This document shows positions 1,802 to 61,081 of a stretch of 64,000 nucleotides of DNA, piece by piece (the stretch's first letter is position 1; each line of letters begins with the position of its first letter). Made by a program: the position numbers and the translations under genes. Source of the DNA: a virus. The notes below the pieces were generated by a model. The model worked only from the letters and a program-made list of their open reading frames with translations, was not told where the DNA came from and did no database searches. The DNA is taken from the IMG/VR virus record IMGVR_UViG_3300033508_000321; one strand, written 5' to 3'.

Positions 1802-2121
1802 TAGTAGTTTTCCCATCAATAATTCCGAACGGGTACAAGGCTATGGCTTTGTATCCTTTTATTTTCGTATCTGAGCCAAAAGGTACGTACGTATTTAAAC
1901 TTTTGAGCAAAGGTCTGGAATACTCAAAAGCGGTAGGACGGTGGGAAAGAATGATTGCGCATGAAAGAGTACACCACAAACAACAAAAAGAATTGCTTTT
2001 CATTGGCTTTTTACTTGTATATTTGTACTTTCACTTGCGTTATGGATATAGACACAACCCAATGGAAAAAGAAGCCGTACACGGTAGAAAAAAACGCTTT
2101 GGCTGGACTGAGTACATATGA
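1798..2121 (+). CDS. Small HExxH-motif protein with hydrophobic segment (putative minimal metallopeptidase-like)
   Basis: Motif AHERVHH (HExxH), then a hydrophobic stretch LLFIGFLLVYLYF, then NPMEKEA. ATGA overlap with the upstream gene. Confidence 0.4.
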   Translation: MIVVFPSIIPNGYKAMALYPFIFVSEPKGTYVFKLLSKGLEYSKAVGRWERMIAHERVHHKQQKELLFIGFLLVYLYFHLRYGYRHNPMEKEAVHGRKKRFGWTEYI

Positions 2122-3545
2122 TAACAGATAAGGAAATAGAGGAACTGGTAACAGGTTTGTATAATGGTACGGTGAGCATCTTGCGCTTGCCGCAAAATCT
2201 TTTTGCCGCCACTTATCTCGAGTTAATGGGTGGTGTGACTAAAGGTTTTGGAATACCCGAATTTGAAACACCGGCACACGATGTACTCACTAAGCTAGGC
2301 AATAATATCAGCTCTTTTTCCGGCTGTAAGACGTTCAAAGAAACTTATGATATGCAGCAACTTCTTTTCGATTCACAGGGCTATAAAAAGCCTTTTAATG
2401 TGTTCAAGAATGAAGTAATGACCGTTTACACGAATTACAACGAACGTTATTTACAAGCTGAGTACAACACCGCTATAAATTCCGCTTTTTCTGCTGCTGA
2501 CTGGGTAGAATACGAAGCGGATAAAGACATATTCCCACTTCTTCAGTACAAAACAGTACATGATGGTAGGGTACGGGAAGACCATGCAAAACTGCATAAC
2601 ATAGTGAAGCCGGTAGATGATCCTTTTTGGGATACTTTCATGCCGTGCAACGGTTGGAATTGTAGATGCAGGGTAATAAAATTAACAGAATTTGAAGCCG
2701 AAGAAACACCACTTTCAGAGGATAAGCTAAAAGAACTTACTGAAGGTATTCCTGATATATTTCAATTTAATCCGGGCAAACGAGGTGAGATATTTTCGCA
2801 AAGTCATGATTATTTTAATGCCAATACACTACCGCCAAAGGTACGTACGTATTTCACCGAAGAACGCAAAACCAATTTCGGGTTCGTTACACCACCAATA
2901 CAGGGTGTAACCTCACCGATTCCGCAAAAAATCGTTACTGACTATACCCATGCTGTAGAAGAAGTTAACGACTGGTATCTTACTTTGGGTGAAGTTGACC
3001 GTAAAATACTACGGCAGTACACAACCTATGGGGATGTTATTATGAGTAATTACCTACGGGGCACATTAAAAAATAGCGGTGACGTTCGAACTATCATAGA
3101 TGTTAACGGTGTTCCGGTTCTTGTTGGTGGTGGTAAACCGCCAAAGAAAACACTGGAAATGATCGCAAAAGATTTAGCCAATAAAACTACCGATTTGTAC
3201 AAGAAAGCACCTAAATTTGTAGGTACTTCCTACCGTGGGTTGGAGTTTAATAAACGTAACGATTTATTGGCTAAGTTTGAATCGCTAAAACCCGGAGATG
3301 TATTTGTCGAACCCGGCTTTATGAGTACTACACAAACTATAAAGGTTGGTTTAGACTTCTCAGGTGCTGCGGAAGGTGCTTTGATTGAAATAAAAAATGC
3401 TGAAGGCTACGCCATAAAAAGTTTTTCGCGGTTCAAAGGGGAGGAAGAAATACTACTGATGCCCGATACAGTATTAAGATTTGTAGAAAAAGAACGCATA
3501 ACAGTAAACAGAGATAAATACATATTTGAGTATGTCAAACAATGA
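2118..3545 (+). CDS. MuF / SPP1 gp7-like minor head (head morphogenesis) protein fused to a C-terminal ADP-ribosyltransferase domain
   Basis: N-terminal half has the MuF signature HDGRVREDHAKLHN...DPFWDTFMPCNGWNCRCR. C-terminal half has the R-S-ExE ART triad: TSYRG (R at 3234-3236), FMSTTQ, GEEEILL. Confidence 0.75.
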   Translation: MITDKEIEELVTGLYNGTVSILRLPQNLFAATYLELMGGVTKGFGIPEFETPAHDVLTKLGNNISSFSGCKTFKETYDMQQLLFDSQGYKKPFNVFKNEVMTVYTNYNERYLQAEYNTAINSAFSAADWVEYEADKDIFPLLQYKTVHDGRVREDHAKLHNIVKPVDDPFWDTFMPCNGWNCRCRVIKLTEFEAEETPLSEDKLKELTEGIPDIFQFNPGKRGEIFSQSHDYFNANTLPPKVRTYFTEERKTNFGFVTPPIQGVTSPIPQKIVTDYTHAVEEVNDWYLTLGEVDRKILRQYTTYGDVIMSNYLRGTLKNSGDVRTIIDVNGVPVLVGGGKPPKKTLEMIAKDLANKTTDLYKKAPKFVGTSYRGLEFNKRNDLLAKFESLKPGDVFVEPGFMSTTQTIKVGLDFSGAAEGALIEIKNAEGYAIKSFSRFKGEEEILLMPDTVLRFVEKERITVNRDKYIFEYVKQ

Positions 3546-3738
3546 TTCACCATTAAGCAAAGATTTTGAGCCGGTTTTTACGCAGTGCAACACGTGTAAA
3601 CATTTCTATAGGGAAAATGCTGATATTTCGTGTAAAGCATTTGAGAAAATTCCTATGAGTATTCTCACCAATAAAATAAAACACGATAAACCAATAGAGG
3701 GTCAAGAAAACAAAGTAGTGCATGAAAAAGCTAGGTAA
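3532..3738 (+). CDS. Small Cys-containing protein directly downstream of the ART domain (possible immunity/partner protein)
   Basis: The ORF track starts at TTG 3526. The first ATG is at 3532 and overlaps the MuF-ART stop by 14 nt. Contains CNTCKH...C. Confidence 0.4.
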   Translation: MSNNDSPLSKDFEPVFTQCNTCKHFYRENADISCKAFEKIPMSILTNKIKHDKPIEGQENKVVHEKAR

Positions 3739-4225
3739 TTTCGGTTTTCTCGAGGGTAATGCTAAAGGATTTCACGCAACAAAACTTCGTCTTGCGAAAA
3801 TTCTACCCAATACCGCTTTAAATCACTTTTTAGAAGGGTTTGAACTGGGTGGGTATAAAACCGATGCATCCGAAAGTGGGTGGCCTAAAAGAAAAAAGAA
3901 TTACCAAATGAAGAAACGTGGTACACGTGTACCGGGTCAAGTTCGTAGCGTAAATCGTGACCGTGCTTTGCTTGTTAAATCGGGTGCTTTACGTCGCTCG
4001 TTAAAAGTTACAGATTCAAGTCCAAATCTTATGCGTATAGCATCACGTGGTATCAGATATGCAGCTATTCATAACTTCGGTCTGATGGGAAAAGCATTCG
4101 GGAAATGGCCTTTTAAGATGCCTAAACGTGAGTTCGTGGGTAAAAGCAGAGAACTAGACTTGAAACTGAATAAAATCATCATAGCCGCTTTTAAACGCTA
4201 CATGAGTAGCTTAAAAAATCCTTAA
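3722..4225 (+). CDS. Virion morphogenesis / tail completion protein (Mu gpG-like)
   Basis: Motif ALLVKSGALRRSLKV...IRYAAIHNFG is typical of the Mu G / virion morphogenesis family. The MuF-then-G order matches Mu. Confidence 0.55.
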   Translation: MKKLGNFGFLEGNAKGFHATKLRLAKILPNTALNHFLEGFELGGYKTDASESGWPKRKKNYQMKKRGTRVPGQVRSVNRDRALLVKSGALRRSLKVTDSSPNLMRIASRGIRYAAIHNFGLMGKAFGKWPFKMPKREFVGKSRELDLKLNKIIIAAFKRYMSSLKNP

Positions 4226-4286: not shown

Positions 4287-4838
4287 ATGGTTGTTTTCGA
4301 TATATACCGAGCCATACGTACAGCATTAGAAGCATCTACCATCATTGAGCACATTGGCTGGTATAATGACCAGATCAATAATGAAGAGCTTGAAACAGCC
4401 TACAATCATCCCGCCGTTTTTATCGAATTTCCTGACAATGCTTGGGAACAGCAAATGCATAGCACGTTCGGTAATACCGGTGCTCAGGCAAATGGTTACA
4501 TTCAAATAAACGTACACGTGGAATTTACCCTGCTAAATGATATTAGTGATGAGGTTGATTACATGGAAAGCATCGTAGAAGAGGTTTATTACCGTTTGGT
4601 AGGTCTTTCCGGAACTAATTTTACCACATTCAAACGTTTTGCCGATGGTGGCACACCAACAGCATCACGTGTGTACGAATGGGTACTAAAATTTTCAACA
4701 ACCGGCATAGAAGAAGGTAAAGACTTAGGTGCTATAGATGTAACAGAGGGCGATACAAACCCAATAGACTTAGTGCTGAACACCGATTTAGATATTGATA
4801 ACCAGATAATACGTACAGGCGATGGCAATTACATTTGA
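4287..4838 (+). CDS. Hypothetical structural protein
   Basis: 183-aa ORF in the structural block with its own -7 box. No motif recognised. Confidence 0.45.
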   Translation: MVVFDIYRAIRTALEASTIIEHIGWYNDQINNEELETAYNHPAVFIEFPDNAWEQQMHSTFGNTGAQANGYIQINVHVEFTLLNDISDEVDYMESIVEEVYYRLVGLSGTNFTTFKRFADGGTPTASRVYEWVLKFSTTGIEEGKDLGAIDVTEGDTNPIDLVLNTDLDIDNQIIRTGDGNYI

Positions 4839-5088
4839 GCGGCTAACTGATAGCCGAAAAATTACCGTAAAGCGAGATGGTATTGTACAAAGAACGTTCG
4901 ATGTGCAAGACAACGTAAGCATTTTGAGCACTAAAGAGGCGGGGGTAGAAAACCCAAACATGGTGCGCATGCTGAATAACTTAGAAGTGTACGAGTTTGA
5001 CTGGAGAGAAGTGACCATAACACCTACCCCCGGTAGTAGAAATGAACTGGTACAAACTTTGATCTTGAATTTTTTTTTTTTGACGTAG
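4822..5088 (+). CDS. Upstream segment of a fibre-like structural gene split by a T12 tract
   Basis: Ends ...LILNFFFLT* right after the T12 run. The downstream frame is open from 5046 and protein-like well before its first start codon. Confidence 0.5.
   Translation: MAITFERLTDSRKITVKRDGIVQRTFDVQDNVSILSTKEAGVENPNMVRMLNNLEVYEFDWREVTITPTPGSRNELVQTLILNFFFLT
5070..5081 (+). other. T12 homopolymer: candidate -1 frameshift / transcriptional slippage / phase-variation site
   Basis: 12 consecutive T. A -1 shift (or +1 T) joins frame of 4822 to the frame of 5082-6407. Confidence 0.6.
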
Positions 5089-6407
5089 GTCTTATTGGTA
5101 ACACCCCTTTAAAAGTAGCTTATTATGAAGCAATTACAACAACTAGCGGACAAATCACGAAACCGACTGGATCAACAATCCTCCTCGACCAATGGTCTAA
5201 CGGGGTTGATGCGTTGGTTTGTAAAATCGTTGGTGGAAAACCAGATTTTGAGGATTCCGGTGTGGACGTTCTCACTTTTGACGTTGATGGTAATTATACA
5301 ATTAGTGCAGCTTTACCTTCTAATCCGGCAGCATTAATATTTTACTTATCCGTACCGCTCAAGTTCATGGGTAATTTAGACATAAATTACACCATTCAGT
5401 ACGTTGAGTTATCTTACACAGGGTTAGACCATAGCACGCTAATAAATCGTGACGTTGCGGGAAATCATACACTGGTAAAACCGCTAGCAGATTCAACTAC
5501 CGCATTTATGATGCAAAAAGCGGATGGTACACCTATATTTATTTTCGATAGTACGAGTGAAAGTATAAGTATAGCAGGGTTACTTGACGTACTAAAGCAA
5601 ATTAGTCTTGGTGGAACGGATCTTGTAATATCGGACAATGGTAATATAAATGCATACGGCAGCCGTATGATGAGCTTTGCCGATGGTACGCTGTATGACA
5701 TGCAGGCAACTAACAGGGTAAGTATTGACTTCGTAAATCGTATACTTCAACGTATGTGGACAATCACCGGAACGAGTAATGACGGTAGCACACGTATTTT
5801 ACAAGGAAATAATTCGGATAATACCACTGTATTTGCGGTAGACACCAATGGATTTGAGCTCGATCAGTATGACGACCTATTGCCATCTGCCCAGTGGCTA
5901 GCCACCAGCGGAGCACCGAGCCCAGACTTAGTGACTGCAACCATTGGTGGGGTAGTATTCAGCCTGTGGGCATTCGATGGGGGAAATACAGCAGAAAGTA
6001 TGACTTCGTACTTCGAAGTTATACATGGGATTGATATTGACATTCTAAATGCCGATACACTACTTGCAGAAATTCATACACATGGGATGCCCAGTACTAA
6101 CGCTGCCGGTGTGGTGAAGGTATTTTTCTCGATAGTGTACCTTCCGGTAGGTGGTGTCCCTCAGTTATTGGGTACTTTCAGCACGCTTATTACCATCGCG
6201 CTAAATCAGCAGTATTTCCACAAGCTGGGTGGCGTAGAAATACCTAAACCTACCTCCGGTTACGGTATTGGTGACCAAATACTGGTGAAGTATGAGCGAA
6301 AGCCTAACGATGCTCAAGATACATACGGTGCAGACTGGCTATTCTTGCAGTGTGCGTTGCATATGCCATTCAATTCCAGAGGTAGCCGCCAAAGATATGT
6401 GAAGTAA
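5082..6407 (+). CDS. Downstream segment of fibre-like structural protein (tail/head fibre-like)
   Basis: Frame open 5046-6407. The first canonical start is only TTG 5214, yet 5082-5213 translates to plausible protein (DVGLIGNTPLKVAYYEAITTTSGQITKPTGS...). Fibre-like motif STTAFMMQKADGTPIFIFDSTSESISIAG. Confidence 0.5.
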   Translation, partial: DVGLIGNTPLKVAYYEAITTTSGQITKPTGSTILLDQWSNGVDALVCKIVGGKPDFEDSGVDVLTFDVDGNYTISAALPSNPAALIFYLSVPLKFMGNLDINYTIQYVELSYTGLDHSTLINRDVAGNHTLVKPLADSTTAFMMQKADGTPIFIFDSTSESISIAGLLDVLKQISLGGTDLVISDNGNINAYGSRMMSFADGTLYDMQATNRVSIDFVNRILQRMWTITGTSNDGSTRILQGNNSDNTTVFAVDTNGFELDQYDDLLPSAQWLATSGAPSPDLVTATIGGVVFSLWAFDGGNTAESMTSYFEVIHGIDIDILNADTLLAEIHTHGMPSTNAAGVVKVFFSIVYLPVGGVPQLLGTFSTLITIALNQQYFHKLGGVEIPKPTSGYGIGDQILVKYERKPNDAQDTYGADWLFLQCALHMPFNSRGSRQRYVK

Positions 6408-6471: not shown

Positions 6472-7179
6472 ATGGATATTCTATCTTTTTTCAAGTGGAC
6501 TAACGAATTTTTGGCATTAATCGTTGCCATTGGTGGTAGTGGCGCTACACTTTTTGGCCTTATATACAGTCACTTGAAACGTCAAAAAGCGGAGGAAAGC
6601 ATCGCTGAGAAACTCAGTAGTATTGACTTACAACAAAATGAGAAATTACAACAGATGGACGCAAGCGTACAAGAATTGGCTGTTATCGTTACCAACACGC
6701 AAGAGATTTTAAATATATTGCAAAAGGAAAAGCTAGATAAGGCTTTTTTGGATAACCTCAAAGTAAAAATTTCTGATTTGGGTGATACGATTATGAAGGT
6801 ACATCACCTAGATAATGCTTTCGAAAGTCTGATAGTAGAAGCAACCGAAAAAGCGGGTAGTGTGTTCAAGGATATTTGGCGCACAGGTTACGTGAATTGG
6901 GATACTGAGGTACTAGCACGAAAAATTACATCTGCTATGCGTAGCCTACGTACTTATTACACTGGACACGTGGTTACACCGCCAGAGGTTATCGAAGAAA
7001 TTCAACGTAGGGTTGCACAACCAGCCATAAAAAGGTTGCTTACCAGTTTGGAAATGTTCAAATCAGGTCAGTACAATGGTTCTACATCAAAAAAGTACGA
7101 GGAAGTAGTACTGAATTTTTGCCGGGAAATGATTGAAGGCGGTATAGAAATAAATCATTCTATTCAAAAGCGGACTTAA
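6472..7179 (+). CDS. Membrane-anchored coiled-coil protein (moron-like insertion in head module)
   Basis: N-terminal hydrophobic helix FLALIVAIGGSGATLFGLIY, then a Q/E/K-rich helical region. Own promoter. Convergent with the only - strand gene. Confidence 0.5.
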   Translation: MDILSFFKWTNEFLALIVAIGGSGATLFGLIYSHLKRQKAEESIAEKLSSIDLQQNEKLQQMDASVQELAVIVTNTQEILNILQKEKLDKAFLDNLKVKISDLGDTIMKVHHLDNAFESLIVEATEKAGSVFKDIWRTGYVNWDTEVLARKITSAMRSLRTYYTGHVVTPPEVIEEIQRRVAQPAIKRLLTSLEMFKSGQYNGSTSKKYEEVVLNFCREMIEGGIEINHSIQKRT

Positions 7180-7675
7180 GGTCAGTTAACACTTTTTGAG
7201 TGAGCGTATCTGGTAAGAATTTGCCGGATATTTTTATTTCCGTTTTTTCGATGCCGTTTGCTATGAATGTACCTACTTCGATTTTATCAAGATTCTTAGT
7301 GTATTGGATTACCTCGTCAAGTAGTTCATCATTTAAACAGCGTACCTCTGGCTGTAGCCAATCGTAATGATAGTGGTAAGCCTTCAAAACACCGTCAATA
7401 AACTTATAGGTTGATTTTACGATTTTAGGAATTTTCACATCCTTCGAATAAAAATAAAGTCTGGCGGTGGTAGGTGTGATGCTGTACATATCGGCAACCT
7501 CTTTCAAGTGATCCGGGTAGCGAAATGGTTTTTTATCTATGCTGTGCTGAATAGCTCGATCCCGCATTTCCATTTTTATTGCGTAGATAAGCATACTACG
7601 ATCTGATACTAAACCGCATTCAATCCCATCCCGGATAGTTGGTACTGTATCGAAAACAAGCCTATGGTATTTCAT
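7160..7675 (-). CDS. Putative HTH DNA-binding regulator (only - strand gene in window)
   Basis: 171-aa ORF. HTH-like segment LKEVADMYSITPTTARLYFY. 3' end overlaps 6472-7179 by 20 nt. Divergent from the protease gene. Confidence 0.5.
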   Translation of the reverse strand: MKYHRLVFDTVPTIRDGIECGLVSDRSMLIYAIKMEMRDRAIQHSIDKKPFRYPDHLKEVADMYSITPTTARLYFYSKDVKIPKIVKSTYKFIDGVLKAYHYHYDWLQPEVRCLNDELLDEVIQYTKNLDKIEVGTFIANGIEKTEIKISGKFLPDTLTQKVLTDLKSAFE

Positions 7676-7778: not shown

Positions 7779-8963
7779 ATGATACAAAACGCAAAAAATG
7801 CTACTCTAAAGAACGGCGTGTACAGCATTAACATCTTTGGCGAAATCAGAGATTCAAGTTGGTTAGCTGAGGTTATTGATATGTGTCAACGTGAAACTGA
7901 CATAAGCACTATAGAGCTGCGCATTAATTCTACGGGTGGTTACGTGGTGGATGGTTTTTCCGTTGTTTCTGCTATGCTAAATTCAAGTAAGCCAATACGT
8001 ACCGTGAATGAAGGTGTGGCCGCTTCTATTGCCGCTGTTATTTTCTTAGCCGGAAACGAACGTTGGATGCGTGATTATGCAAAAGTAATGATTCACGATC
8101 CCAGTATGTGGGGCGAAGAAATCGAAAAAATGCCCGATGGTAAAAACAAAACCGGGTTAATAAATCTTCGTGAAATGATAGCGCAGTTTATCACGTCACA
8201 AAGTGGAATGAACCTACCTACCGTACGTAAGAAAATGAATGATGAAACTTGGTTCACCGCACCTGAGTGCAAAGAACTGGGTATGGTAGAAAAGATACTC
8301 ACTACCAAACGGAAAGTAGCACTGCCCGAAAATTCAATGGATGCTCTCTTAATGGCAACTAATATACTTAATTTTAACAATTTGAATATGATTCGTGAAT
8401 TTTTTAACCTGCCAGAGGACGCTTCGGAAGAAATGATCCTCGATGCGGCTAAAAACTTGCAAAACGAAGCAGCAGAGGCAAAAGGCAAAGTTTCAGAAAT
8501 GGAAAACAGCCTAAAAGACTTGAATGCTTCAATAGAGAGTTTGAATGCCAATGTGACAAACAAAAATTCGGAAATCGAAAATTTGAAAGCCGAAAACGCT
8601 TCAAAACTCGAGGCAGTTACAAACGAACTTACCAGCGCAAAAAACGAACTGGAACAGTTGAACGGTGTTGTAGCTGAGCAAGAGGTAGAGGCCGCAATAA
8701 AAGCCGGAAAATTCACCGAAGCCGATAAAGAAACGCTGCTCGTATCTGCCAAAAACAACTTGGATACTTTCCGCAAAATCGCTGCCAGTGTACGCACTAA
8801 CGTACCAAAGATTACTGACGTGATTAACAAACCTGCGGTTACTGAATCCAAAAATGATTGGGGCTACAGCGAATGGTCTAAAAAAGACCCAGAGGGTTTG
8901 AAAAAACTGCAAGCAGAGAACCCTGCAAAATTCAAAAATTTACTTGACAAATACCTAAACTAA
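7779..8963 (+). CDS. Prohead protease (ClpP/S49-like) with C-terminal coiled-coil scaffold region
   Basis: INSTGGYVVDG...GVAASIAAVIFLAG...MIHDPS (Ser/His ClpP-like motifs). C-terminal E/K/A/N-rich coiled coil. Confidence 0.75.
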   Translation: MIQNAKNATLKNGVYSINIFGEIRDSSWLAEVIDMCQRETDISTIELRINSTGGYVVDGFSVVSAMLNSSKPIRTVNEGVAASIAAVIFLAGNERWMRDYAKVMIHDPSMWGEEIEKMPDGKNKTGLINLREMIAQFITSQSGMNLPTVRKKMNDETWFTAPECKELGMVEKILTTKRKVALPENSMDALLMATNILNFNNLNMIREFFNLPEDASEEMILDAAKNLQNEAAEAKGKVSEMENSLKDLNASIESLNANVTNKNSEIENLKAENASKLEAVTNELTSAKNELEQLNGVVAEQEVEAAIKAGKFTEADKETLLVSAKNNLDTFRKIAASVRTNVPKITDVINKPAVTESKNDWGYSEWSKKDPEGLKKLQAENPAKFKNLLDKYLN

Positions 8964-9340: not shown

Positions 9341-10258
9341 ATGGCAACAGAAGTATTAAAAAGGTTGTTTAGCCGTGAAATCGCATCAAACCTTTTTCCC
9401 GACAACCAATTTTACAAGTATTCAAAGCTCGTTGGTGGTGTAAACCCTGACGTGGCCGTGGTAGAAATACCAAACGCAGGTGCAGTTCCTACTGTAGTAG
9501 TTAACCCTACCGTTTACCCTTTGCAGATTGTAGAGCGTAAAGACGACCGCCAAACTTTCAACGTGGATTTGTTTGCAACAAAACCTACCCTTTTGACTGA
9601 CGAAAATCAGTTGGTTGTAAGTTACGACAAACGTGCCGATGTGTTGAAAGACCATACAAGTACTTTGAATAGCGAAATCGCTTTTCGTATAGCTCACGCA
9701 TGGGCAAGTGGTATACCCGCAGGTGGACTTTTCCCAACAACCGGTACAACTACCCGTAGTGCTTCACTACCCTCAGCAACCGGTACACGTAAACGTGCAA
9801 TCGCTGCCGACATACAAAAAATTCAGGAATACATGGACAAACAAGACGTGCCAATGGATGGCCGTTACGCTGTTCTACCTGCTGAATTGTATGGTGACCT
9901 TGCATTGGTTGACGAGTTTATCTCGTACGACAGACGTGGTTTGGTTGACATGGTGAAAATGGGTCTGATTGGTGAGATTTACGGTTTCCGTATCTTCAAA
10001 CGTAGCTCAGTGGTTCTTGCAAACGCTTCTAGTGGTGCATTGAAAGCCATAGGTGCTGCTGCCGCAACTACCGATTCATACGCTGGTCTTTTCTGGCATG
10101 AATCTTTTGCTTGGAGAGCAGAAGGAAACGCAAAAATCTACATTAACCCTGATCAAGCCGAGTACCTTGGTACTGTTATGAACGCCGCAGTTCGTGCCGG
10201 TGGTGCTACTTCTTACCTTGACGGTAAAGGTGTTGCAATGCTTTATCAAGCAAGCTAA
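9341..10258 (+). CDS. Major capsid protein
   Basis: 305 aa. Canonical position after the protease/scaffold. No family-specific motif verified. Confidence 0.6.
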   Translation: MATEVLKRLFSREIASNLFPDNQFYKYSKLVGGVNPDVAVVEIPNAGAVPTVVVNPTVYPLQIVERKDDRQTFNVDLFATKPTLLTDENQLVVSYDKRADVLKDHTSTLNSEIAFRIAHAWASGIPAGGLFPTTGTTTRSASLPSATGTRKRAIAADIQKIQEYMDKQDVPMDGRYAVLPAELYGDLALVDEFISYDRRGLVDMVKMGLIGEIYGFRIFKRSSVVLANASSGALKAIGAAAATTDSYAGLFWHESFAWRAEGNAKIYINPDQAEYLGTVMNAAVRAGGATSYLDGKGVAMLYQAS

Positions 10259-10476
10259 TGACCGAATTAACAAAACTATCCGGGGCGTATTTTGAAAAAG
10301 ATACGTCTCTGGAGGTTATGTTTGCAACCTCTGATGGAAATTTCTTTTACCAAGAAACATATGCTACTGAGCATTCGAGGAAAAAAGGGATTGAAAAAAT
10401 CAAAATAACCCGGGAAGACTGGGAAAAAAGTAAAAACATACCCAAAATAAACAAAAATGGCATTAACAATAAATAA
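10258..10476 (+). CDS. Hypothetical protein
   Basis: ATG overlaps the capsid stop. 72 aa. Confidence 0.35.
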   Translation: MTELTKLSGAYFEKDTSLEVMFATSDGNFFYQETYATEHSRKKGIEKIKITREDWEKSKNIPKINKNGINNK

Positions 10477-12070
10477 GAGTGCTAACGGTTTGGGAAGGCT
10501 ACTGCCCGGTACTTCTCATGTATCGGGTTTGCTTTTTTACAGCAATACCTTACCGTCAGGCTTTTCATCTGGTAGCCGTATCAAAAAACTGTATTCATTA
10601 CAGGATGCGGTGAATCTGGGTATAACTGGCAATAGCTCCGATGAAACGAAAGCCGCAACCGGTGGAACAGTCTTGATGACTGCCGTAGGTTCAAGTGGTG
10701 ACGTTTCTAGTATCACTGTTAACGGTGGTGTATTGGGTTCGTATACGCATGGTGCTAGTGAAACTACCACTACCCTAGCTACCGCCCTTGCCGCCGCAAT
10801 TAACACCAACACGTTTAAACATGGGTGGACTGCTTCATCTGCAACCGCTACCGTGACCGTTGTACCGCCTACCGGCTTAGGTGCTTTCTCTCTTACTTTG
10901 GCTCTGGCTACAAGTGGTACAGCAGCAGCTACCGTTACTCAATTAAGTGGTGGTGCGAGTTCAAAACTTGATCCGTTGTATTATCACATTTCCGAATTTT
11001 TCCGCTTAAATTCTCAGGGTATTCTTTACGTTGGTATTTATGCTGAGGGTTCGTACACTGGTGCTGAAATAAAAACGCTGCAAGATTACTCAGGTGGTGA
11101 GATAAACCAAATAGCTGTATACGTACCCGCCGTTACTTTTGCTTCGAGCCTTGTAACTGCTTCACAAACTTACGTAGATACCGTATACAACGAAGGTAAA
11201 CCTTTGATGGTTACTTTAGCCGCCGATTTTACCTCACTTGCTATAGCTACATTGCCGAACATTACTACTTTGGACAGTGAAGGTGTACACGTGAATATTG
11301 GTGTAGATGGTTACTGGACTAGCCCCGTTTGGGCAGCAGCCGAAACATACGTTACCGGAACTCTGGTTAACTTCTGCGGTAAGATTTACAGCGCAAAGAG
11401 TAACGCAACCGGTGCTCCACAAAGCCCGTTGAATACTCAGTATTGGGCTGAAATCAGCAAAAACTATCAGGCTATCTTTGGAAAATCCGTACCCGCTCTA
11501 GGTACTGTACTCGGTGCAATGTCATTGGCGAAAGTTAGTGAAAATATCGGATGGGTACAGAAATTTGACCTCTCAGGTACAAACGTATTTCAAAGTGGCG
11601 GTCTGGTATTTGGTACTGCTTATCGTGATTTAACAGAAAATCAGAAAACCGATATTACCAATAAGCACTATACGTTTATTGAAACTCACTACGGTATTTC
11701 GGGTAGTTATTTCACCGATTCGTGGACTGCTACACTTCGTACTAGCGATTATGCAACGATTGAAAACAATCGTACAATTAACAGTCTGATACGTAGTGTA
11801 CGCCCAGAGGTTTTGCCCTTGCTCAAATCACCTTTGTTTGTTACAAGTGCGGGTAAACTTACCAATGGCACAGTGGCAATCTTCGAAAATTCCGTGAAAC
11901 GTGGTGCAGATGTGCTCACAACTTCGCAGGATATAAGTGCTTACAGTGTACTCATTAACCCGGATCAAGATGTGTTAACTACTTCGCAAGTTGTGGTGAC
12001 GCTTCGTGTTGTACCGGTTGGTGTTGCACGTGAGATAGTTGTTAACATTGGATTTACAACCGCATTATGA
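10457..12070 (+). CDS. Putative tail sheath protein with CBM5/12-like insertion
   Basis: 537 aa immediately before the tube-chaperone-tape measure series. Internal YVTGTLVNFCGKIYSAKSNATGAPQSPLNTQYW motif (11321-11452). Confidence 0.5.
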   Translation: MALTINKSANGLGRLLPGTSHVSGLLFYSNTLPSGFSSGSRIKKLYSLQDAVNLGITGNSSDETKAATGGTVLMTAVGSSGDVSSITVNGGVLGSYTHGASETTTTLATALAAAINTNTFKHGWTASSATATVTVVPPTGLGAFSLTLALATSGTAAATVTQLSGGASSKLDPLYYHISEFFRLNSQGILYVGIYAEGSYTGAEIKTLQDYSGGEINQIAVYVPAVTFASSLVTASQTYVDTVYNEGKPLMVTLAADFTSLAIATLPNITTLDSEGVHVNIGVDGYWTSPVWAAAETYVTGTLVNFCGKIYSAKSNATGAPQSPLNTQYWAEISKNYQAIFGKSVPALGTVLGAMSLAKVSENIGWVQKFDLSGTNVFQSGGLVFGTAYRDLTENQKTDITNKHYTFIETHYGISGSYFTDSWTATLRTSDYATIENNRTINSLIRSVRPEVLPLLKSPLFVTSAGKLTNGTVAIFENSVKRGADVLTTSQDISAYSVLINPDQDVLTTSQVVVTLRVVPVGVAREIVVNIGFTTAL

Positions 12071-12504
12071 ATACAGTACCCTTAATTAATGGCCGTGCGT
12101 ACGACTATGCATCCATTGAGTTGATTTTAGCAGGTTCGCCGCTAGTTTCCGTTTCTTCTATCTCATACGTAGAATCACAGGAAAAAATGAATAACTACGG
12201 TTTGGGTACATTACCAACAAGCCGTGGCCGTGGTACGAAAGAAGTGAGCGTATCTATGGACATTTCAATGAATGAGGTTGAAAACCTACGTACTGCCGTG
12301 TTTGCTTTGGATTCACTCAGCAAAGGTTCTTTGCTTTCTTTACCCGCTTTCGATATTTTGGTTTCGTTCTTCAATGGTCAAAGTGTAGTGGTTCACACAG
12401 TGAAAAATTGTGAATTTACTGACGATGGTGTTGAAGGTTCAACCGGTGATGGTGAGCTGAAACGTTCTTTCAATTTGATTGCTTCACACGTGGAATACCG
12501 ATGA
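12067..12504 (+). CDS. Putative tail tube protein
   Basis: 145 aa between the sheath-sized gene and the chaperone pair. ATGA overlap. Confidence 0.55.
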   Translation: MNTVPLINGRAYDYASIELILAGSPLVSVSSISYVESQEKMNNYGLGTLPTSRGRGTKEVSVSMDISMNEVENLRTAVFALDSLSKGSLLSLPAFDILVSFFNGQSVVVHTVKNCEFTDDGVEGSTGDGELKRSFNLIASHVEYR

Positions 12505-12809
12505 AAAAAACAAAAGTAATTCGCAAAGAGGCTTTGCCGGTACAAGCGTTTGAAATCGTGGTGAGCGGTGTAGCATACGAATATGTTATACAGCAACCTA
12601 CCTTTGAACAGCTATCACTAGCTACCTCGCAGATGATAAAATCAGGTGGTACTATGGATGTAGTTTCGCCCGGAAAAATCATTTTCGATACGTGTTGTGT
12701 AGAGCATACCGAAGGTATGGAATTAGAACCCTCAGTACTCATAAAAATCTGTATAGGTTTAACGACCGAATATGTACAGGGTTTTGATTACGAGATTAAA
12801 AAAAAATAG
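12501..12809 (+). CDS. Tail assembly chaperone (short, in-frame product)
   Basis: 102 aa directly upstream of the tape measure gene. Ends in the slippery run ATT AAA AAA AAA TAG. Confidence 0.6.
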   Translation: MKKTKVIRKEALPVQAFEIVVSGVAYEYVIQQPTFEQLSLATSQMIKSGGTMDVVSPGKIIFDTCCVEHTEGMELEPSVLIKICIGLTTEYVQGFDYEIKKK

Positions 12810-12976
12810 ATGTTGAAACGCTGCCGGAGGCTGTTAGTTTCCGGCACGTTTTCGCTCTTATCCGCTTTTACTATCACGTTAATCCCGAAGATTTGGACAT
12901 GGAAACATACGTAAAATTACTTTCAGAATTGACTTGGTTAAGCAAAGTGGGTGTTCTTGGTGTAAAACTTTCATAA
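12501..12976 (+). CDS. Tail assembly chaperone, long product via -1 frameshift at A9 (12798-12806)
   Basis: The -1 frame is open with no start codon from the A9 run to TAA 12974-12976 (57 codons: KIDVETLPEAVSFRHVFALIRFYYHVNPEDLDMETYVKLLSELTWLSKVGVLGVKLS). Confidence 0.55.
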
Positions 12977-13012: not shown

Positions 13013-14716
13013 ATGGCCAATATAGTAGAATACATCATAAAATTAAATGACCGCTTCGCACCGGTGCTCGATAAAACGCATTCGAAGTTAAAAACCTTTG
13101 AGAGCAGTTTATTTTCGGTAAATAGCACAGTACTTTCGCTCGGTGCTGCTATTGCCGGTATTGGTGTAGGTAGTAAAATCATTTCTGCTACATCCGATTT
13201 CGAGCGTTTTAACGCCGTTTTAACGAACGCATTTGGTGACGCTACAAAAGCAGCATCCAGTATGCAAATGATAACGGACATAGCAAGTAAAACGCCTTTC
13301 GAGATAGATAAATTAACCGAGAGCTACGTAAAACTTGTTAACCGTGGTTTTGTACCCACACGTGAGGAAATTATAAACCTAGGTGACTTAGCTAGTTCGC
13401 AAGGCAAAGAATTTGACCAGTTAACCGAGGCACTTTTGGACGCAGAAACAATGGAATTTGAGCGCCTAAAAGAATTTGGGATAAAAGCATCGAAAGAGGG
13501 TAATAAAGTAAAAATGACTTTCAGAGGTGTAACCACTACAATGGATGCGACTGGTGAAAGTGTGCGTAACTATGTACTAGGTTTAGGGCAAGTAAAAGGA
13601 ATTTCCGGATCGATGGCTGCTATCTCTGGTACGTTGGGTGGTAGGCTTAGCAATTTACAAGATTCATTAACACAATTGGCATTAAAAGTAGGTCTGGCAC
13701 TCTCGAAAGAACTAAAAGGGTTTATTGACTGGTCAATAGAATTGATCTCTAAGTACACACCGGCTATAGTTGCGGGTGTTGGTGCTATGATTGCAAAGTT
13801 CAAAGTTTTCGTAGGGTGGATTCAAGAAAATAAAGATATGCTGATGGGATTAATCACCGGTTTTGCCGCTTTTATTGCCATATATAAGACTCTAGGCATG
13901 GTTAGTCAGTCTATCACGTTGTTTCAATCTATAATGGCGTTTGCTGCCGCAAATCCTATTGTATTGATAGTAGCAGCCGTTGCCGGATTAATTGCATACA
14001 TGGTACATCTGTACAAAACAAGTGAATCATTTCGTAAAGTTGTGGATGACCTTTGGTCTTCAATAAAAGGGTTAGCTACTCAATTAAGCAAAGCATTTGC
14101 CCCTGCATTGTCTAAAATATGGGATATGTTCAAAAAACTTTGGGCAATTTTAAAGCCTATTGTAGACAGAGCACTTACCGGGTTGCTTGGATACATTAAC
14201 ATGATAATAACGGCATTCGGTAAATTGGTTTCTTTTTTTACCGAAACAAAAATAGGTACATTCATAGTTGACGTGCTGCTAGCACCATTAAAGCTAAGTA
14301 TTATGTACGTAGAAAAGCTATTTTCGCTCGTAGAGTGGGGCATGGAAAAACTCGGTTTGATGCAAAAAGAACAAGCAAGTGGTATAACTACTGATGAGGA
14401 CATGAATTTGATCGATCCGAACAGAAAGTACCGTATGGCAGGCCTACATAATGGTGGAAATACTCTTGCAGGAAATTTAAACGCTGCAACCAATACAACA
14501 GCAAATGGTGGTGTGAATGCTATAACGAAAAATGCAAGTGGTGTGAGTGAAATTACCAATGCAGCACCAAAAGTGTTTAACGTGAACATAGAAAAGCTAA
14601 TTGAGAATTTCGATATCAATACCACTAACATAAAAGAAAGCGGCGCACAGCTAAAGGAAATGATTAAAAAAACGATTTTAGAGGCGGTAACAGATGTTTC
14701 ACTTCAAATGAATTAA
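13013..14716 (+). CDS. Tail tape measure protein
   Basis: 567 aa. TMP core motif ASKTPFEIDKLTESYVKLVNRGF...LGDLASSQG. Central hydrophobic helices. Position after the frameshifted chaperones. Confidence 0.8.
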   Translation: MANIVEYIIKLNDRFAPVLDKTHSKLKTFESSLFSVNSTVLSLGAAIAGIGVGSKIISATSDFERFNAVLTNAFGDATKAASSMQMITDIASKTPFEIDKLTESYVKLVNRGFVPTREEIINLGDLASSQGKEFDQLTEALLDAETMEFERLKEFGIKASKEGNKVKMTFRGVTTTMDATGESVRNYVLGLGQVKGISGSMAAISGTLGGRLSNLQDSLTQLALKVGLALSKELKGFIDWSIELISKYTPAIVAGVGAMIAKFKVFVGWIQENKDMLMGLITGFAAFIAIYKTLGMVSQSITLFQSIMAFAAANPIVLIVAAVAGLIAYMVHLYKTSESFRKVVDDLWSSIKGLATQLSKAFAPALSKIWDMFKKLWAILKPIVDRALTGLLGYINMIITAFGKLVSFFTETKIGTFIVDVLLAPLKLSIMYVEKLFSLVEWGMEKLGLMQKEQASGITTDEDMNLIDPNRKYRMAGLHNGGNTLAGNLNAATNTTANGGVNAITKNASGVSEITNAAPKVFNVNIEKLIENFDINTTNIKESGAQLKEMIKKTILEAVTDVSLQMN

Positions 14717-14722
14717 CAAAGT

Positions 14723-15316
14723 ATGGCAGTATTCAAGCAACTAACCGCAAACGCAGTAGAACTCAGCATACGTGCTAAAGGAATTATCACATCATTAGTA
14801 CAGCCTTTGCTTTTCAACGTACAGGCTTTGCAACGTGATACACCAGATCGTTTTTCCGATTTTTTTGGTACACCGGTGCTCGGTTCTATGCTTTTCCCAC
14901 AGGGTGCGTATGTTGATTTGACGGGAAATACCATAGCGTACCCGGACTTGAATTTCAACGAGGCAATAGTAGAAGTAAGTAAAACGAATAACATAGAAAG
15001 CACCCCACTACCGGGTAGAGATGGTACGATAAAAGAGTACATTTCTGCATCCGATTACCAAATAACCGTAAATGCTTTGCTAGTTGGTGAGGGTGAGCAG
15101 TCACCGTATGATTTGGTTACCACTTGTAACTCCGTTTTTTCCGCTACTCAGGCTATTGAAGTGTATAACGATTTACTCATAGCTTTGGATGTTACGACCG
15201 TGGTTATTCAATCGGTTACGTACCGCCAAAATCAGGCATTTTCAAACGTTTTGGGTGTTACTATCACAATGACCTCGGATAAAAACGTTAACTTAGAAGA
15301 AAATGCTACGACCTAG
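14723..15316 (+). CDS. Baseplate/tail protein (post-tape-measure)
   Basis: 197 aa. Call by position only. Confidence 0.4.
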   Translation: MAVFKQLTANAVELSIRAKGIITSLVQPLLFNVQALQRDTPDRFSDFFGTPVLGSMLFPQGAYVDLTGNTIAYPDLNFNEAIVEVSKTNNIESTPLPGRDGTIKEYISASDYQITVNALLVGEGEQSPYDLVTTCNSVFSATQAIEVYNDLLIALDVTTVVIQSVTYRQNQAFSNVLGVTITMTSDKNVNLEENATT

Positions 15317-16274
15317 TATAAAAATACAAATCGGGCAAACGGTTTTTACTTCGGTAGAATCGGTCACAATTACCCAAACATGGGAAGAGATGACCGATAC
15401 CGCCATGTTTCGCCTACCTTCTACACTCTGGAAACGTGGCATTAATCTGAAAACGCTGTTTCCATATGGAACTGCCGTTACTATTTGGATGGGTGTGGAT
15501 AGAAATTTAGTCGAAATTTTTACTGGTTACGTTACTGCAATAAAGCAGGATTCAATCAGTGAGTTTGCGTGTCAAGATGCTATGTACCTGCTGAAAAAAA
15601 GCACCGTAAAAAGCTATTTTAAATCGAACGTTAGCTTAAAACAGTTGCTTTTAGATCTTGAAATACCCGCAACGGCGAATGTTGAAGTACCAAATCTAGG
15701 TACAGTGAAGTTTCAAAACGTAAACAAAGCTCAAATACTTGACAAACTCAAAGAATACGGACTTTATACGTTCAATCGTAACGGCTTGCAAGTTGGCTTT
15801 CCTTACCTGTTAACGGGTAGCGAGTACAAGTTTTACTTCAATGGCGCAAAAGCAAGCATAATTGATAATAGTTTGAACTACGAAGAAGTAGAAGTAAATC
15901 AGATTTACCTGAAAAGCACATCGTTTTTGGCAGATGGTAGCAATATTGTGCTTTATTCCTACTACCTGAATGGAAACATCGTGAGCAGTACTGAAAAGCC
16001 AGATGATGGTGATTCACGAAATGCTTTTTTCTACGGTTTATCATACTCAGAATTAAAGCAGGTGAGCGAAGAACGTTTGCGCAAAATAAACTATGATGGT
16101 TATAGTGGTACTTTTAGCACTTTTATTTTGCCGAAAATTTATTTTGGTGATAAAGTAACGCTAGTAGATAACCGTTATGCTGAGCGTGAGGGTACGTACC
16201 TTGTAAAAGGTGTAGAACGTACGTATAGTACAGGTGGTGCACGTCAAACAATAATGTTAGATGCGAAAGTATGA
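15303..16274 (+). CDS. Baseplate hub protein (P2 gpD / late control D-like)
   Basis: 323 aa. C-terminal GTYLVKGVERTYSTGGARQTIML resembles the gpD family ending. Position is consistent. Confidence 0.55.
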   Translation: MLRPSIKIQIGQTVFTSVESVTITQTWEEMTDTAMFRLPSTLWKRGINLKTLFPYGTAVTIWMGVDRNLVEIFTGYVTAIKQDSISEFACQDAMYLLKKSTVKSYFKSNVSLKQLLLDLEIPATANVEVPNLGTVKFQNVNKAQILDKLKEYGLYTFNRNGLQVGFPYLLTGSEYKFYFNGAKASIIDNSLNYEEVEVNQIYLKSTSFLADGSNIVLYSYYLNGNIVSSTEKPDDGDSRNAFFYGLSYSELKQVSEERLRKINYDGYSGTFSTFILPKIYFGDKVTLVDNRYAEREGTYLVKGVERTYSTGGARQTIMLDAKV

Positions 16275-16810
16275 GAGAAATAATAAAGCAACTTTTTGCC
16301 GATTTTTTTAATCAGCATGAAATTTACTCACGTTATGGTGTGGTTACTCAGGTTAATTCTGATAACACGTGTAGCGTAAGTTTTGAGGGTTTTGCGTCTA
16401 TGGAAAACATACCCTTTGCCGGAATTTCTGGCAATGATGGCATAGTAATAAAACCGAAATTGAATACTAAAGTACTGGTGACGTTTACCAGTTTTCAGAC
16501 CGCTTTTATTTCTTACGTTGTAGAACCTGATACCATACAATTTAAAAATGAAAGTGTTAAAATTCTGTTATCTGATAAAGTCATTTTTAATGCTGGTGAG
16601 AACGATGGTACAGTGCTAATAAATCCATTATTGGAAAAAATAAACCGCTTAGAAGGTCAGATAAATGACCTTAAAACGCTTTTTTCATCATGGGTAGTAG
16701 CACCCGGTGATGGTGGTTTAGCGTTGAAAACCATACTTGCAACGTGGTACGCTGCTCAGATAAGCGAAACAACAAAAGACGAAATAGAAAATAAAACTAT
16801 ACTGCAATGA
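16271..16810 (+). CDS. Baseplate spike/assembly protein (gpV-like)
   Basis: 179 aa following the hub gene. Call by context. Confidence 0.4.
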   Translation: MREIIKQLFADFFNQHEIYSRYGVVTQVNSDNTCSVSFEGFASMENIPFAGISGNDGIVIKPKLNTKVLVTFTSFQTAFISYVVEPDTIQFKNESVKILLSDKVIFNAGENDGTVLINPLLEKINRLEGQINDLKTLFSSWVVAPGDGGLALKTILATWYAAQISETTKDEIENKTILQ

Positions 16811-19629: not shown

Positions 19630-19700
19630 TGCGGGATAGTGTAATGGTAAAACGCTGGTCTCATAAGCCAAAGCTGGTAGTTCGATTCTATCTCCCGCAA
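19630..19700 (+). tRNA. tRNA-Met (anticodon CAT; could also be an Ile2/initiator type)
   Basis: Manual fold. Acceptor TGCGGGA/TCCCGCA. D stem GTGT/ACGC. Anticodon loop CTCATAA. T arm GGTAG-TTCGATT-CTATC. No encoded CCA. Confidence 0.75.
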
Positions 19701-19726
19701 CTTAGATTCATCCTAAGTTTGTTTTT
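19701..19726 (+). terminator. Hairpin plus T-run after tRNA
   Basis: CTTAG-attcatc-CTAAG followed by TTTGTTTTT. Confidence 0.5.
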
Positions 19727-61045: not shown

Positions 61046-61077
61046 AAAAGCTATTTAGTAAATGAGTAGCTTTTTTA
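61046..61077 (+). terminator. Rho-independent terminator upstream of terminase large subunit
   Basis: AAAAGCTA-13 nt-TAGCTTTT followed by TT. Confidence 0.55.
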
Positions 61078-61081
61078 TTTC

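What the first reader, a model, noticed from the sequence alone, without database searches (positions are those of the whole stretch)
4822..6407. Fibre-like structural gene split by a T12 homopolymer: programmed -1 frameshift, transcriptional slippage, or phase variation
ORF 4822-5088 ends 5 nt after a run of 12 T (5070-5081). The adjacent frame is open from 5046 to 6407 and has no canonical start until TTG 5214. Even so, 5082-5213 encodes ordinary-looking protein (DVGLIGNTPLKVAYYEAITTTSGQITKPTGSTILLDQWSNGVDA...).

A -1 ribosomal slip on T TTT TTT, or one extra T or U, would fuse the two parts into a protein of about 528 aa with the junction ...LILNFFFFDVGLIGN...

Runs of 9 or more A or T are known to cause RNA polymerase slippage and slipped-strand length variation. 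The downstream part has fibre-like sequence (STTAFMMQKADGTPIFIFDSTSESISIAG). The tract could therefore set the ratio of a short to a long structural product, or switch a fibre on and off in the population.
Basis: seen in the sequence. Interest (0 to 1): 0.65.

Follow-up and report, generated by a model that had tools for sequence, protein, structure and literature searches.

The report
Conserved slippery T-run in phage fibre gene
A phage fibre-like gene is split here only because a run of T that is exactly ten long in every in-frame relative is twelve long in this copy. The run is conserved so strictly, and varies so readily between near-identical phages, that it looks like a built-in slippage switch rather than a programmed ribosomal frameshift.

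Summary
In detail: T12 at 5070-5081 splits a gene into an 88-aa ORF (4822-5088) and a frame open to 6407. The split is not the gene's normal design.

Four assemblies of the same phage carry this gene. Their backbones differ by about 0.05% outside two recombinant patches. Two have T10, giving one 527-aa ORF with junction NFFFDVGL. One has T11 and the window has T12. The tract is the only indel in 15 kb.

Eight diverged lineages of the family (N-terminal domains 20-42% identical) all carry exactly xxT TTT TTT TTT at the end of the N-terminal domain. This holds even where TTT is the minority Phe codon. Both alternative frames stop within 4 codons or fewer.

Structure prediction shows a modular fibre/adhesin-like protein: N-terminal domain, a widespread beta-sandwich, and a C-terminal carbohydrate-binding-like jelly roll.

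Best reading: a conserved slippage-prone homopolymer at a domain boundary. It would act as a heritable ON/OFF contingency tract, as a Thermus-dnaX-like transcriptional slippage site yielding anchor-only and full-length products, or both. The window holds an out-of-frame allele.

A programmed -1 ribosomal frameshift is not supported. A consensus error at the homopolymer cannot be excluded without reads.

The parts
4822..5069 (+). Coding sequence of the N-terminal domain (aa 1-83), up to the tract. The model shows beta strands followed by a helix at residues 73-85 that ends in FFF. This is the presumed virion-anchor domain.
   Evidence: HMM match of frame 4810-5085 to profile positions 1-76.
5070..5081 (+). 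T12 homopolymer. It is an out-of-frame (+2) length variant of a tract that is T10 in all in-frame relatives. It supplies the wobble T of Asn83 and the three Phe codons.
5082..5088 (+). Tail of the short product in the T12 allele: the last base of TTG (5080-5082), then ACG, then TAG (5086-5088). The product ends ...NFFFLT*.
5082..6407 (+). Distal part of the gene in the -1 frame (aa 87-527 of the intact protein, stop at 6405-6407). It has no nonsense or frameshift change, and at most 1 nucleotide differs from the in-frame alleles.
5106..5393 (+). Middle beta-sandwich domain (aa ~95-190, KVAYYEAITTTSGQI...NPAALIFY). It is a widely shuffled module found at the N-terminal end of hundreds of fibre/tailspike-like proteins.
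   Evidence: pLDDT above 91.
5856..6383 (+). C-terminal jelly-roll domain (aa ~345-520). It resembles carbohydrate-binding modules and Eph ligand-binding domains, and is also a widely shuffled module.
   Evidence: (pLDDT above 95).
5214..6407 (+). The 397-aa TTG-started ORF reported by gene callers. It is most likely an artefact of the frameshift, because it would begin inside the beta-sandwich domain.

Best explanation
The region 4822-6407 is one gene for a modular fibre/adhesin-like virion protein. It has an N-terminal anchor domain, a beta-sandwich, a variable middle and a C-terminal glycan-binding-like jelly roll.

At the end of the N-terminal domain the family carries a homopolymer of exactly ten T (xxT TTT TTT TTT, read as ..FFF). 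This run is kept at the nucleotide level. The window carries a +2 length variant (T12). Standard decoding of it gives only the 88-aa N-terminal domain.

The tract most likely works as a slippage site at two levels.
- (a) DNA replication. Slipped-strand mispairing produces heritable, reversible T10/T11/T12 alleles. These switch the distal binding part of the fibre ON or OFF while the anchor domain is always made. This is a contingency locus.
- (b) Transcription. The host RNA polymerase slips on a run of 10-12 T, so every allele yields a mixture of mRNAs. Stop codons lie within 4 codons or fewer in both other frames, so the mixture encodes two defined products: anchor-only and full-length. This is the logic of Thermus dnaX and of tssM. 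The T12 allele would therefore be leaky, not null.

Shown here: one gene; T10 conserved; length polymorphism among near-clonal assemblies; nearby stops; domain boundary; fibre-like fold.
Inferred, not shown: that the polymorphism lies in the DNA and not in the consensus calling; that RNA polymerase slips here; that either product ratio matters; that the N-terminal domain is the anchor.
For: 1. One gene. P0001 and P0167 are 527-aa single ORFs that are 99.8-100% identical to the window's two parts, with junction NFFFDVGL = T10.

2. Hypervariability.
- The four assemblies have T10, T10, T11 (L011) and T12 (window).
- The tract is the only indel in 15.2 kb against L001 and in 5.1 kb against L011.
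- All 37 other homopolymers of 6 nt or more, including an A9, are concordant.
- Backbone divergence is about 0.05% outside two recombinant patches.
- The gene has 0-1 SNP and no decay downstream of the tract.

3. Nucleotide-level conservation.
- Eight lineages, with N-terminal domains only 20-42% identical, all have exactly T10.
- TTT is only 23-30% of Phe codons in two of these genomes.
- The preceding codon is AAT, GAT, TCT or GCT, so the amino acid differs but the wobble base is always T.
- The joint probability given the amino acids and local codon usage is about 6e-10. For the wobble T alone it is about 1e-3.
- T10 is the longest stretch identical in all four first lineages. Only 20% of invariant amino-acid columns share a codon across them.
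- It is the longest homopolymer in every locus.
- A sister N-terminal-domain clade with ..DFF.. uses GAT TTC TTT or GAC TTT TTT, so it has no long run.

4. Two-product architecture.
- One extra T gives an immediate stop in 7 of 8 lineages.
- Two extra T, or one fewer, gives a stop after 2-4 codons in 8 of 8.
- The tract sits at the end of the N-terminal domain (helix 73-85).
- Downstream architectures differ between lineages: middle plus C domain, middle domain only, C domain without middle, or other.

5. Precedents.
- Thermus dnaX: a single ORF, slippage, nearby stops in both non-zero frames, and two products (PMC5009743).
- tssM: a run of 11 A, with both forms and their ratio required (PMC4256274).
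- Bacterial RNA polymerase slips on runs of 7 or more T, with a bias toward poly(T) (PMC6260861).
- Contingency loci in phages T2 and T4 (PMC12633550).
- Hypermutable polyG tracts in Campylobacter phages (Sorensen 2021, as cited in PMC10877375).

6. Fibre-like nature. The model has pLDDT 79. The C-terminal domain resembles carbohydrate-binding modules, Eph ligand-binding domains, the Fbs1 sugar-binding domain and tailspike carbohydrate-binding domains. The best viral matches are tail fibre, host-specificity and collagen-fibre proteins.
Against: - No reads were available, so T11 and T12 could be consensus errors at the longest homopolymer in the genome.
- The sister lineage P0003 shows T10 in all 4-8 contigs, so variability was seen in one lineage only.
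- Enrichment of early off-frame stops is statistically modest. For +1T the binomial p is about 0.003, but Fisher's combination gives 0.40 under a proper conditional null. For +2T, Fisher gives 0.028.
- The lineages are not fully independent.
- FFF is also conserved as protein, so part of the conservation reflects amino-acid constraint.
- One lineage (L017) has the tract interrupted (AAT TTT TTT GTT), so the run is dispensable there.
- There is no direct evidence for the virion location of the protein, or that the N-terminal domain alone has a role.
Confidence: 0.6

Rival explanations
1. Consensus or assembly artefact. The real genome has T10 and a plain 527-aa ORF. T12 here and T11 in L011 arise from polymerase stutter or base-calling at the longest homopolymer. 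The conserved T10 would still be real, but the split would not be.
For: The tract is the only discordant site and also the longest homopolymer. An in-frame contig with the window's exact protein haplotype exists (P0167). The downstream frame is perfectly intact.
Against: All 37 other runs of 6-9 nt agree between assemblies. The T10 of the P0003 lineage was assembled as T10 in four contigs from different samples, including a sample numbered close to L011's. A +2 error would have to be the majority call. Two different wrong lengths in two assemblies would need error rates above 50%.
Confidence: 0.25
2. An ordinary inactivating frameshift in a dispensable accessory gene. T12 and T11 are real but are simply loss-of-function mutations at a mutation-prone run. 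The tract has no selected role, and the full-length protein is not made from this allele.
For: Long homopolymers are mutational hotspots. The gene sits at different positions in related phages, like an accessory cassette. One lineage interrupted the tract.
Against: Neutral hotspots should be removed by synonymous TTC changes. Instead T10 is kept in 8 of 8 in-frame lineages against codon bias. There is no secondary decay downstream in either out-of-frame allele. No other large fibre gene is recognisable in the tail module, so the gene may not be dispensable.
Confidence: 0.1
3. Programmed -1 ribosomal frameshift on U UUU UUU, with two overlapping ORFs as the designed arrangement.
For: The T12 allele contains a formal slippery heptamer. 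A -1 slip would give NFFFFDVGL and a 528-aa product.
Against: Homologues in eight lineages are single ORFs. The T11 allele would need +1 or -2, not -1. No downstream hairpin or pseudoknot is present (z = +0.95). No two-ORF arrangement is conserved anywhere.
Confidence: 0.03
4. The T/U10 run is conserved for a reason other than slippage. It could be a short conserved junction that promotes recombinational swapping of modules downstream of the N-terminal domain. It could also be an RNA-level signal, such as a pause site, an RNase site or a protein-binding U-tract.
For: Architectures downstream of the tract are mosaic. The tract lies exactly at the module boundary.
Against: Ten bases of homopolymer is very little homology. 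No flanking nucleotides are conserved. No upstream hairpin makes it a terminator. This reading does not explain the length polymorphism or the early stops.
Confidence: 0.05

Closest known systems
Thermus thermophilus dnaX (tau/gamma) programmed transcriptional slippage
   Same: The long product is encoded in a single ORF. An A/T homopolymer lies inside it. Stop codons lie nearby in both non-zero frames, so slipped mRNAs yield a defined short N-terminal product (PMC5009743).
   Different: Here the gene is a phage structural gene and the run is T10 on the coding strand. No RNA or protein data exist. The window allele is itself out of frame, which is not the dnaX design.
Citrobacter rodentium / Yersinia tssM transcriptional frameshifting
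   Same: The gene is interrupted just after a long homopolymer (A11). Slippage restores the frame. Short and full-length forms are both made, and their ratio matters. The gene belongs to a contractile-tail-like machine (PMC4256274).
   Different: In tssM the interrupted form is the fixed genomic state. Here the in-frame T10 is the family norm, and T11 and T12 are variants of one lineage.
Contingency loci (simple-sequence-repeat phase variation), including phage examples: T2/T4 homopolymer loci and Campylobacter phage polyG tracts
   Same: An intragenic homopolymer changes length between near-identical genomes and toggles the reading frame. The phage context is the same (PMC12633550; Sorensen et al. 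2021 Cell Rep 35:109214, as cited in PMC10877375).
   Different: This is poly-T, not polyG or A runs of 6-9. The tract is conserved at exactly the same codon positions across eight deeply diverged lineages. It lies at a domain boundary, so the OFF state still yields a folded N-terminal domain. No switching rates or phenotypes were measured.
Lambda G/GT-type tail chaperone -1 frameshift
   Same: A structural-module gene yields two products from a slippery homopolymer. This phage itself has such a site (A9 at 12798-12806).
   Different: G/GT has two overlapping ORFs conserved in all relatives, and frameshifting extends the protein. Here relatives have one ORF, and slippage truncates it.

Membership tests
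Contingency locus (SSR-mediated phase variation) | Simple sequence repeat within the reading frame, long enough to slip (homopolymer of about 7 or more) | tested here: met
   T12 at 5070-5081; T10 or T11 in relatives
Contingency locus (SSR-mediated phase variation) | Repeat length differs among otherwise near-identical genomes or populations | tested here: met
   T10, T10, T11 and T12 in four assemblies. The tract is the only indel, and the backbone differs by about 0.05%. Caveat: these are consensus sequences, not reads.
Contingency locus (SSR-mediated phase variation) | Length changes switch the ORF between in-frame and out-of-frame | tested here: met
   T10 gives 527 aa, T11 gives 86 aa, T12 gives 88 aa
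Contingency locus (SSR-mediated phase variation) | High-frequency, reversible switching with a phenotype | not testable with these tools
   Needs reads, passage experiments and a host
Programmed transcriptional slippage, Thermus dnaX type | Run of 9 or more A/T inside a long ORF, conserved at nucleotide level in homologues | tested here: met
   T10 in 8 of 8 in-frame lineages against codon bias, joint p about 6e-10
Programmed transcriptional slippage, Thermus dnaX type | Stop codons close by in both alternative frames, giving a defined short product | tested here: met
   Stops lie within 4 codons or fewer in both frames in 8 of 8 lineages. Enrichment over the null is only modest: binomial about 0.003 and Fisher 0.40 for +1T, Fisher 0.028 for +2T.
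Programmed transcriptional slippage, Thermus dnaX type | Heterogeneous mRNA lengths at the run, and both protein products detected | not testable with these tools
   No transcriptome or proteome available
Programmed -1 ribosomal frameshift cassette | Slippery heptamer X XXY YYZ | tested here: met
   U UUU UUU is present within the tract
Programmed -1 ribosomal frameshift cassette | Downstream stimulatory RNA structure at 5-9 nt | tested here: not met
   5082-5160 folds at -7.5 kcal/mol, z = +0.95 against shuffles
Programmed -1 ribosomal frameshift cassette | Two overlapping ORFs conserved among homologues | tested here: not met
   All eight lineages are single ORFs
Phage tail fibre / receptor-binding protein | Modular architecture: conserved N-terminal attachment part and exchangeable distal binding domains | tested here: met
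   The N-terminal domain is combined with different downstream modules. The middle and C-terminal domains occur in over 1000 proteins of varied architecture, including beta-helix and Laminin_G_3 proteins.
Phage tail fibre / receptor-binding protein | Structural similarity to known fibre or tailspike binding domains | tested here: inconclusive
   Foldseek gives carbohydrate-binding-module and Eph ligand-binding jelly rolls with target TM-scores of 0.4-0.5. BFVD top hits are tail fibre and host-specificity proteins with low global TM-scores. No Pfam, PHROG, PDB-sequence or cultured-phage match was found.
Phage tail fibre / receptor-binding protein | Presence in the virion and a role in adsorption | not testable with these tools
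   Uncultured phage. The gene lies in the head/neck part of the structural module here and between the tube and chaperone genes in L015.

The most novel reading that the evidence does not exclude
A family of phage fibre/adhesin genes has a deeply conserved poly-T slippage switch built into the hinge after the virion-anchor domain. It would serve as a dnaX-like two-product device that sets the ratio of bare anchors to full fibres. It would also serve as a heritable ON/OFF contingency tract for the distal glycan-binding module. This would be the first homopolymeric contingency or slippage tract in phage structural genes shown to be conserved across lineages whose proteins have diverged to 20-40% identity.
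Probability: 0.4. Interest if true: 0.75.

Novelty: new variant of a known kind. Interest (0 to 1): 0.6.

Why it matters
If the tract is a selected slippage site, it shows that phages can hard-wire stochastic control of a host-recognition module. That control would act on fibre ON/OFF state, or on fibre occupancy per virion. The device would persist through deep divergence and module swapping. This links three topics that are usually treated separately: bacterial-style contingency loci, transcriptional recoding, and the modular evolution of fibres.

Practically, it warns that annotation pipelines split such genes into a small ORF plus an artefactual TTG-started ORF, as happened in two of the four assemblies. 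It also gives a compact hypothesis that can be tested directly with read pile-ups, a reporter construct and virion proteomics.

Tried and rejected
Searches that found nothing:
- Megablast and tblastn against 50,697 cultured-phage records gave no match.
- Pfam, PHROGs and PDB sequence searches found no family for this protein.
- The viral-contig scan with the N-terminal plus middle-domain profile found no relatives.
- The genome-contig scan found none.
- An N-domain-only homologue search returned only the two truncated products of this lineage. No out-of-frame alleles were therefore found in other lineages.

Analyses that were poor or inconclusive:
- The first AlphaFold run, with 7 sequences, was poor (pLDDT 44).
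- A 106-sequence whole-protein MAFFT alignment misaligned the domains and was dropped. It was replaced by a domain-trimmed alignment.
- dN/dS across alleles was impossible because the gene has only 0-1 SNP.
- A first test of off-frame stop proximity used a weak null. It was redone with a conditional null and gave only modest support.

Ideas rejected:
- The T-run is not an intrinsic terminator or attenuator. There is no upstream hairpin, and the scan found no terminator at the site.
- No -1 frameshift stimulator is present.
- The window holds no paralogous copy of the gene.
Full report
**Observation.** The sequence is as described.
- T12 lies at 5070-5081.
- An ATG-started ORF at 4822-5088 encodes 88 aa ending ...LILNFFFLT*.
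- The -1 frame is open from 5046 to 6407, with no start codon before TTG at 5214.
- A run of ten or more T is not unexpected from composition alone. Dinucleotide-preserving shuffles give a mean of 4.8 T10 matches, against the 3 overlapping matches of this single tract. Chance cannot be excluded from the window alone, so the case rests on comparison with relatives.

**Context.** The window is a nearly complete genome of an uncultured tailed phage with a contractile-tail gene set. Nearly all called genes lie on the + strand.
- Around the finding lie a Mu F-like minor head protein fused to an ADP-ribosyltransferase domain (2118-3545) and a Mu G-like neck/tail-completion protein (3722-4225).
- Further downstream are a ClpP-type prohead protease/scaffold (7779-8963), the major head protein (9341-10258) and the sheath (10457-12070).
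- The tape measure follows at 13013-14716, then the baseplate hub proteins.
- The large terminase is at 61062-62678.
- The phage encodes its own family A DNA polymerase and a DnaB-like helicase. No phage RNA polymerase was seen among the ORFs scanned (not every ORF was scanned), so host RNA polymerase presumably transcribes the gene; this is an inference.
- No cultured phage has similar DNA or a similar protein.

**It is one gene.** A homology search with the fused sequence returned P0001, a 527-aa single ORF that is about 100% identical over its whole length.
- Its contig (L001, JGI 3300002026) has AAT TTT TTT TTT GAC, that is T10, with junction NFFFDVGL.
- L001 matches the window at 99.06% over 15.2 kb with exactly one gap, which is the tract.
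- A second relative, L011 (JGI 3300033516), has T11 and encodes an 86-aa product ending NFFF*. Again the tract is the only indel in 5.1 kb.
- A cluster look-up found a fourth assembly, a 21,137-bp contig. Its 527-aa protein (P0167) is residue-for-residue the window's sequence with T10.
- The lineage therefore shows T10, T10, T11 and T12.
- All 37 other homopolymers of 6-9 nt in the overlaps agree.
- SNPs are confined to two recombinant patches (14744-16407 against L001, 3699-4102 against L011). Elsewhere divergence is about 0.05%.
- The gene itself differs by 0-1 nucleotide, and its distal frame is intact in both out-of-frame alleles.

**The tract is conserved as nucleotides.** Word-based and exhaustive profile searches, together with contig look-ups, gave eight lineages that carry the N-terminal domain followed by FFF. 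They are L001, L002, L003-6, L010, L012-13, L014, L015 and L016.
- Their N-terminal domains are only 20-42% identical. Leu80 and FFF are the only invariant residues.
- All eight nonetheless have exactly xxT TTT TTT TTT.
- In the L002 and L003 genomes TTT is only 23-30% of Phe codons.
- The preceding residue is N, D, S or A, always with a T-ending codon.
- Given the amino acids and local codon usage, the joint probability is about 6e-10. For the wobble T alone, which is free of amino-acid constraint, it is about 1e-3.
- In a codon alignment of four lineages, only 20% of invariant amino-acid columns share a codon. T10 is the longest stretch identical in all four.
- T10 is the longest homopolymer in every locus.
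- A sister N-terminal-domain clade ending in ..DFF.. uses GAT TTC TTT or GAC TTT TTT.
- One further lineage (L017) has the tract interrupted as T7-G-TT, read as NFFV.
- These lineages share ancestry, so the probabilities are upper bounds on significance. Synonymous sites elsewhere in the gene are clearly saturated.

**Consequences of slippage.**
- One extra T gives an immediate stop (TGA or TAG) in 7 of 8 lineages.
- Two extra T, or one fewer, gives a stop after 2-4 codons in all eight.
- Under a null that conditions on the preceding T's, an immediate stop is expected in 30-39% of cases. That gives a binomial p of about 0.003, but Fisher's combination gives only 0.40. For the other frame Fisher gives 0.028.
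- The enrichment is suggestive, not decisive. The architecture is nevertheless the one described for Thermus dnaX: a single ORF, slippage, and nearby stops in both non-zero frames (PMC5009743).

**What the protein is.**
- A 55-row domain-trimmed alignment gave an AlphaFold model with mean pLDDT 79.
- The N-terminal domain spans residues 1-86. It has beta strands and a helix at 73-85 that ends in FFF (pLDDT about 76).
- A short linker follows, then a beta-sandwich at 95-190 (pLDDT above 91).
- A poorly predicted middle region follows, then a jelly roll at 350-520 (pLDDT above 95).
- Foldseek against the PDB matches the jelly roll to EphA2 ligand-binding domains, to carbohydrate-binding modules (CBM27, 35, 36, 28, 30, 16), to the Fbs1 sugar-binding domain, and to carbohydrate-binding domains of phage tailspikes.
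- Against predicted viral structures, the best matches are tail fibre, host-specificity J and collagen-fibre proteins.
- The beta-sandwich and the jelly roll each occur in hundreds of proteins of different architecture: 1,125 hits at E of 1e-3 or below. These include beta-helix tailspike-like and Laminin_G_3 proteins.
- 'Fibre/adhesin-like, glycan-binding' is thus a reasonable inference. The protein's location on the virion is unknown.
- The gene sits in the head/neck part of the structural module here. In L015 it sits between the tube and chaperone genes. It therefore behaves like a movable accessory cassette. Even so, no other large fibre gene is evident in this phage's tail module.

**Mechanism.** RNA folding shows no terminator hairpin upstream and no frameshift-stimulating structure downstream. 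Together with the single-ORF state of all in-frame relatives and the existence of a T11 allele, this rules out a designed -1 ribosomal frameshift.

The best-supported reading is a selected slippage-prone homopolymer at a domain boundary, acting at two levels.
- At the DNA level it behaves as contingency loci do. Such loci have been reported in phages T2 and T4 (PMC12633550) and in Campylobacter phages (Sorensen 2021, cited in PMC10877375).
- At the RNA level, bacterial RNA polymerase is known to slip on runs of 7 or more T (PMC6260861). Runs of 9-11 A or T produce two functional length variants in dnaX and tssM (PMC5009743, PMC4256274).
- Either way the N-terminal domain is always made, and the distal binding part is made in a fraction of virions or of the population.
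- The T12 allele of the window would then be a low-expression state, not a dead gene.

**What remains open.** Without reads I cannot show that T11 and T12 are real alleles and not consensus errors at the longest homopolymer.
- Against error: all other homopolymers are concordant. Two different wrong lengths would each have had to win the consensus. The co-occurring P0003-lineage phage has a stable T10 in four assemblies from different samples.
- For error: an in-frame contig of identical haplotype exists.
- I put the artefact reading at about 0.25.
- Even if it is true, the nucleotide-level conservation of T10 across the family stands and still needs an explanation.

**Verdict.** Its phase-variation and transcriptional-slippage options are supported in outline. 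Its ribosomal-frameshift option is not supported. The true in-frame product is 527 aa (FFF), not 528. The feature is best filed as a new variant of known slippage and contingency devices, found in an uncharacterised family of phage fibre-like proteins.

Noticed in passing
window 12501-12976 (A9 at 12798-12806): ORF 12501-12809 lies between the tail tube gene and the tape measure gene and ends ...GAG ATT AAA AAA AAA TAG. The -1 frame is open from the A-run for about 57 further codons, to about 12976. This looks like the classical G/GT-type tail-assembly-chaperone -1 frameshift on A AAA AAA. The A9 has the same length in L001.
   Followed up: partly
window 2118-3545: The Mu F-like minor head protein carries a C-terminal ADP-ribosyltransferase domain (PF03496, E = 2.5e-7; PF01129 weak). 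It may be a virion-packaged, injected effector.
   Followed up: no
window 14744-16407 and 3699-4102: Divergence from the sister contigs is confined to patches. Against L001 there are 127 SNPs in 1.7 kb over the baseplate-hub genes. Against L011 there are 24 SNPs in 0.4 kb of the Mu G-like gene. The rest differs by about 0.05%. This indicates recent recombinational mosaicism on a clonal backbone.
   Followed up: partly
window 5106-5393 and 5856-6383; proteins P0008-P0165: Two domain families have no Pfam, PHROG or PDB-sequence match. One is a beta-sandwich (KxAYYEEITxxSGxIxxP...NPAALIYY). The other is a C-terminal jelly roll (..HxHG..ST...GSRQRYxK). Both are widespread (1,125 proteins at E of 1e-3 or below) and are shuffled among fibre/tailspike-like proteins of 90-1,500 aa.
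   Followed up: partly
L015 4001-5188; L012 5001-6569; L003 10001-11215: The homologous gene occupies different slots in related phages. It lies between the tube and chaperone genes in L015. It lies downstream of the Mu-type portal, after three further ORFs, in L012. It lies upstream of the head genes in L003. It therefore behaves as a mobile cassette within structural modules.
   Followed up: partly
window 7160-7675 (- strand): A 171-aa ORF on the minus strand is the only long reverse-strand ORF that was also called as a gene in the relatives (L001, L011). It lies just before the protease gene and has no family match.
   Followed up: no
window 19630-19701: A single tRNA-Met (CAT) gene lies at the boundary between the tail module and the replication module.
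   Followed up: no
L011 1526-2719 and the window's own contig (P0166): Gene callers annotated the distal part of the frameshifted gene as a separate 397-aa protein starting at TTG. The database stores it with a leading L. This is an annotation artefact that hides the split gene.
   Followed up: yes
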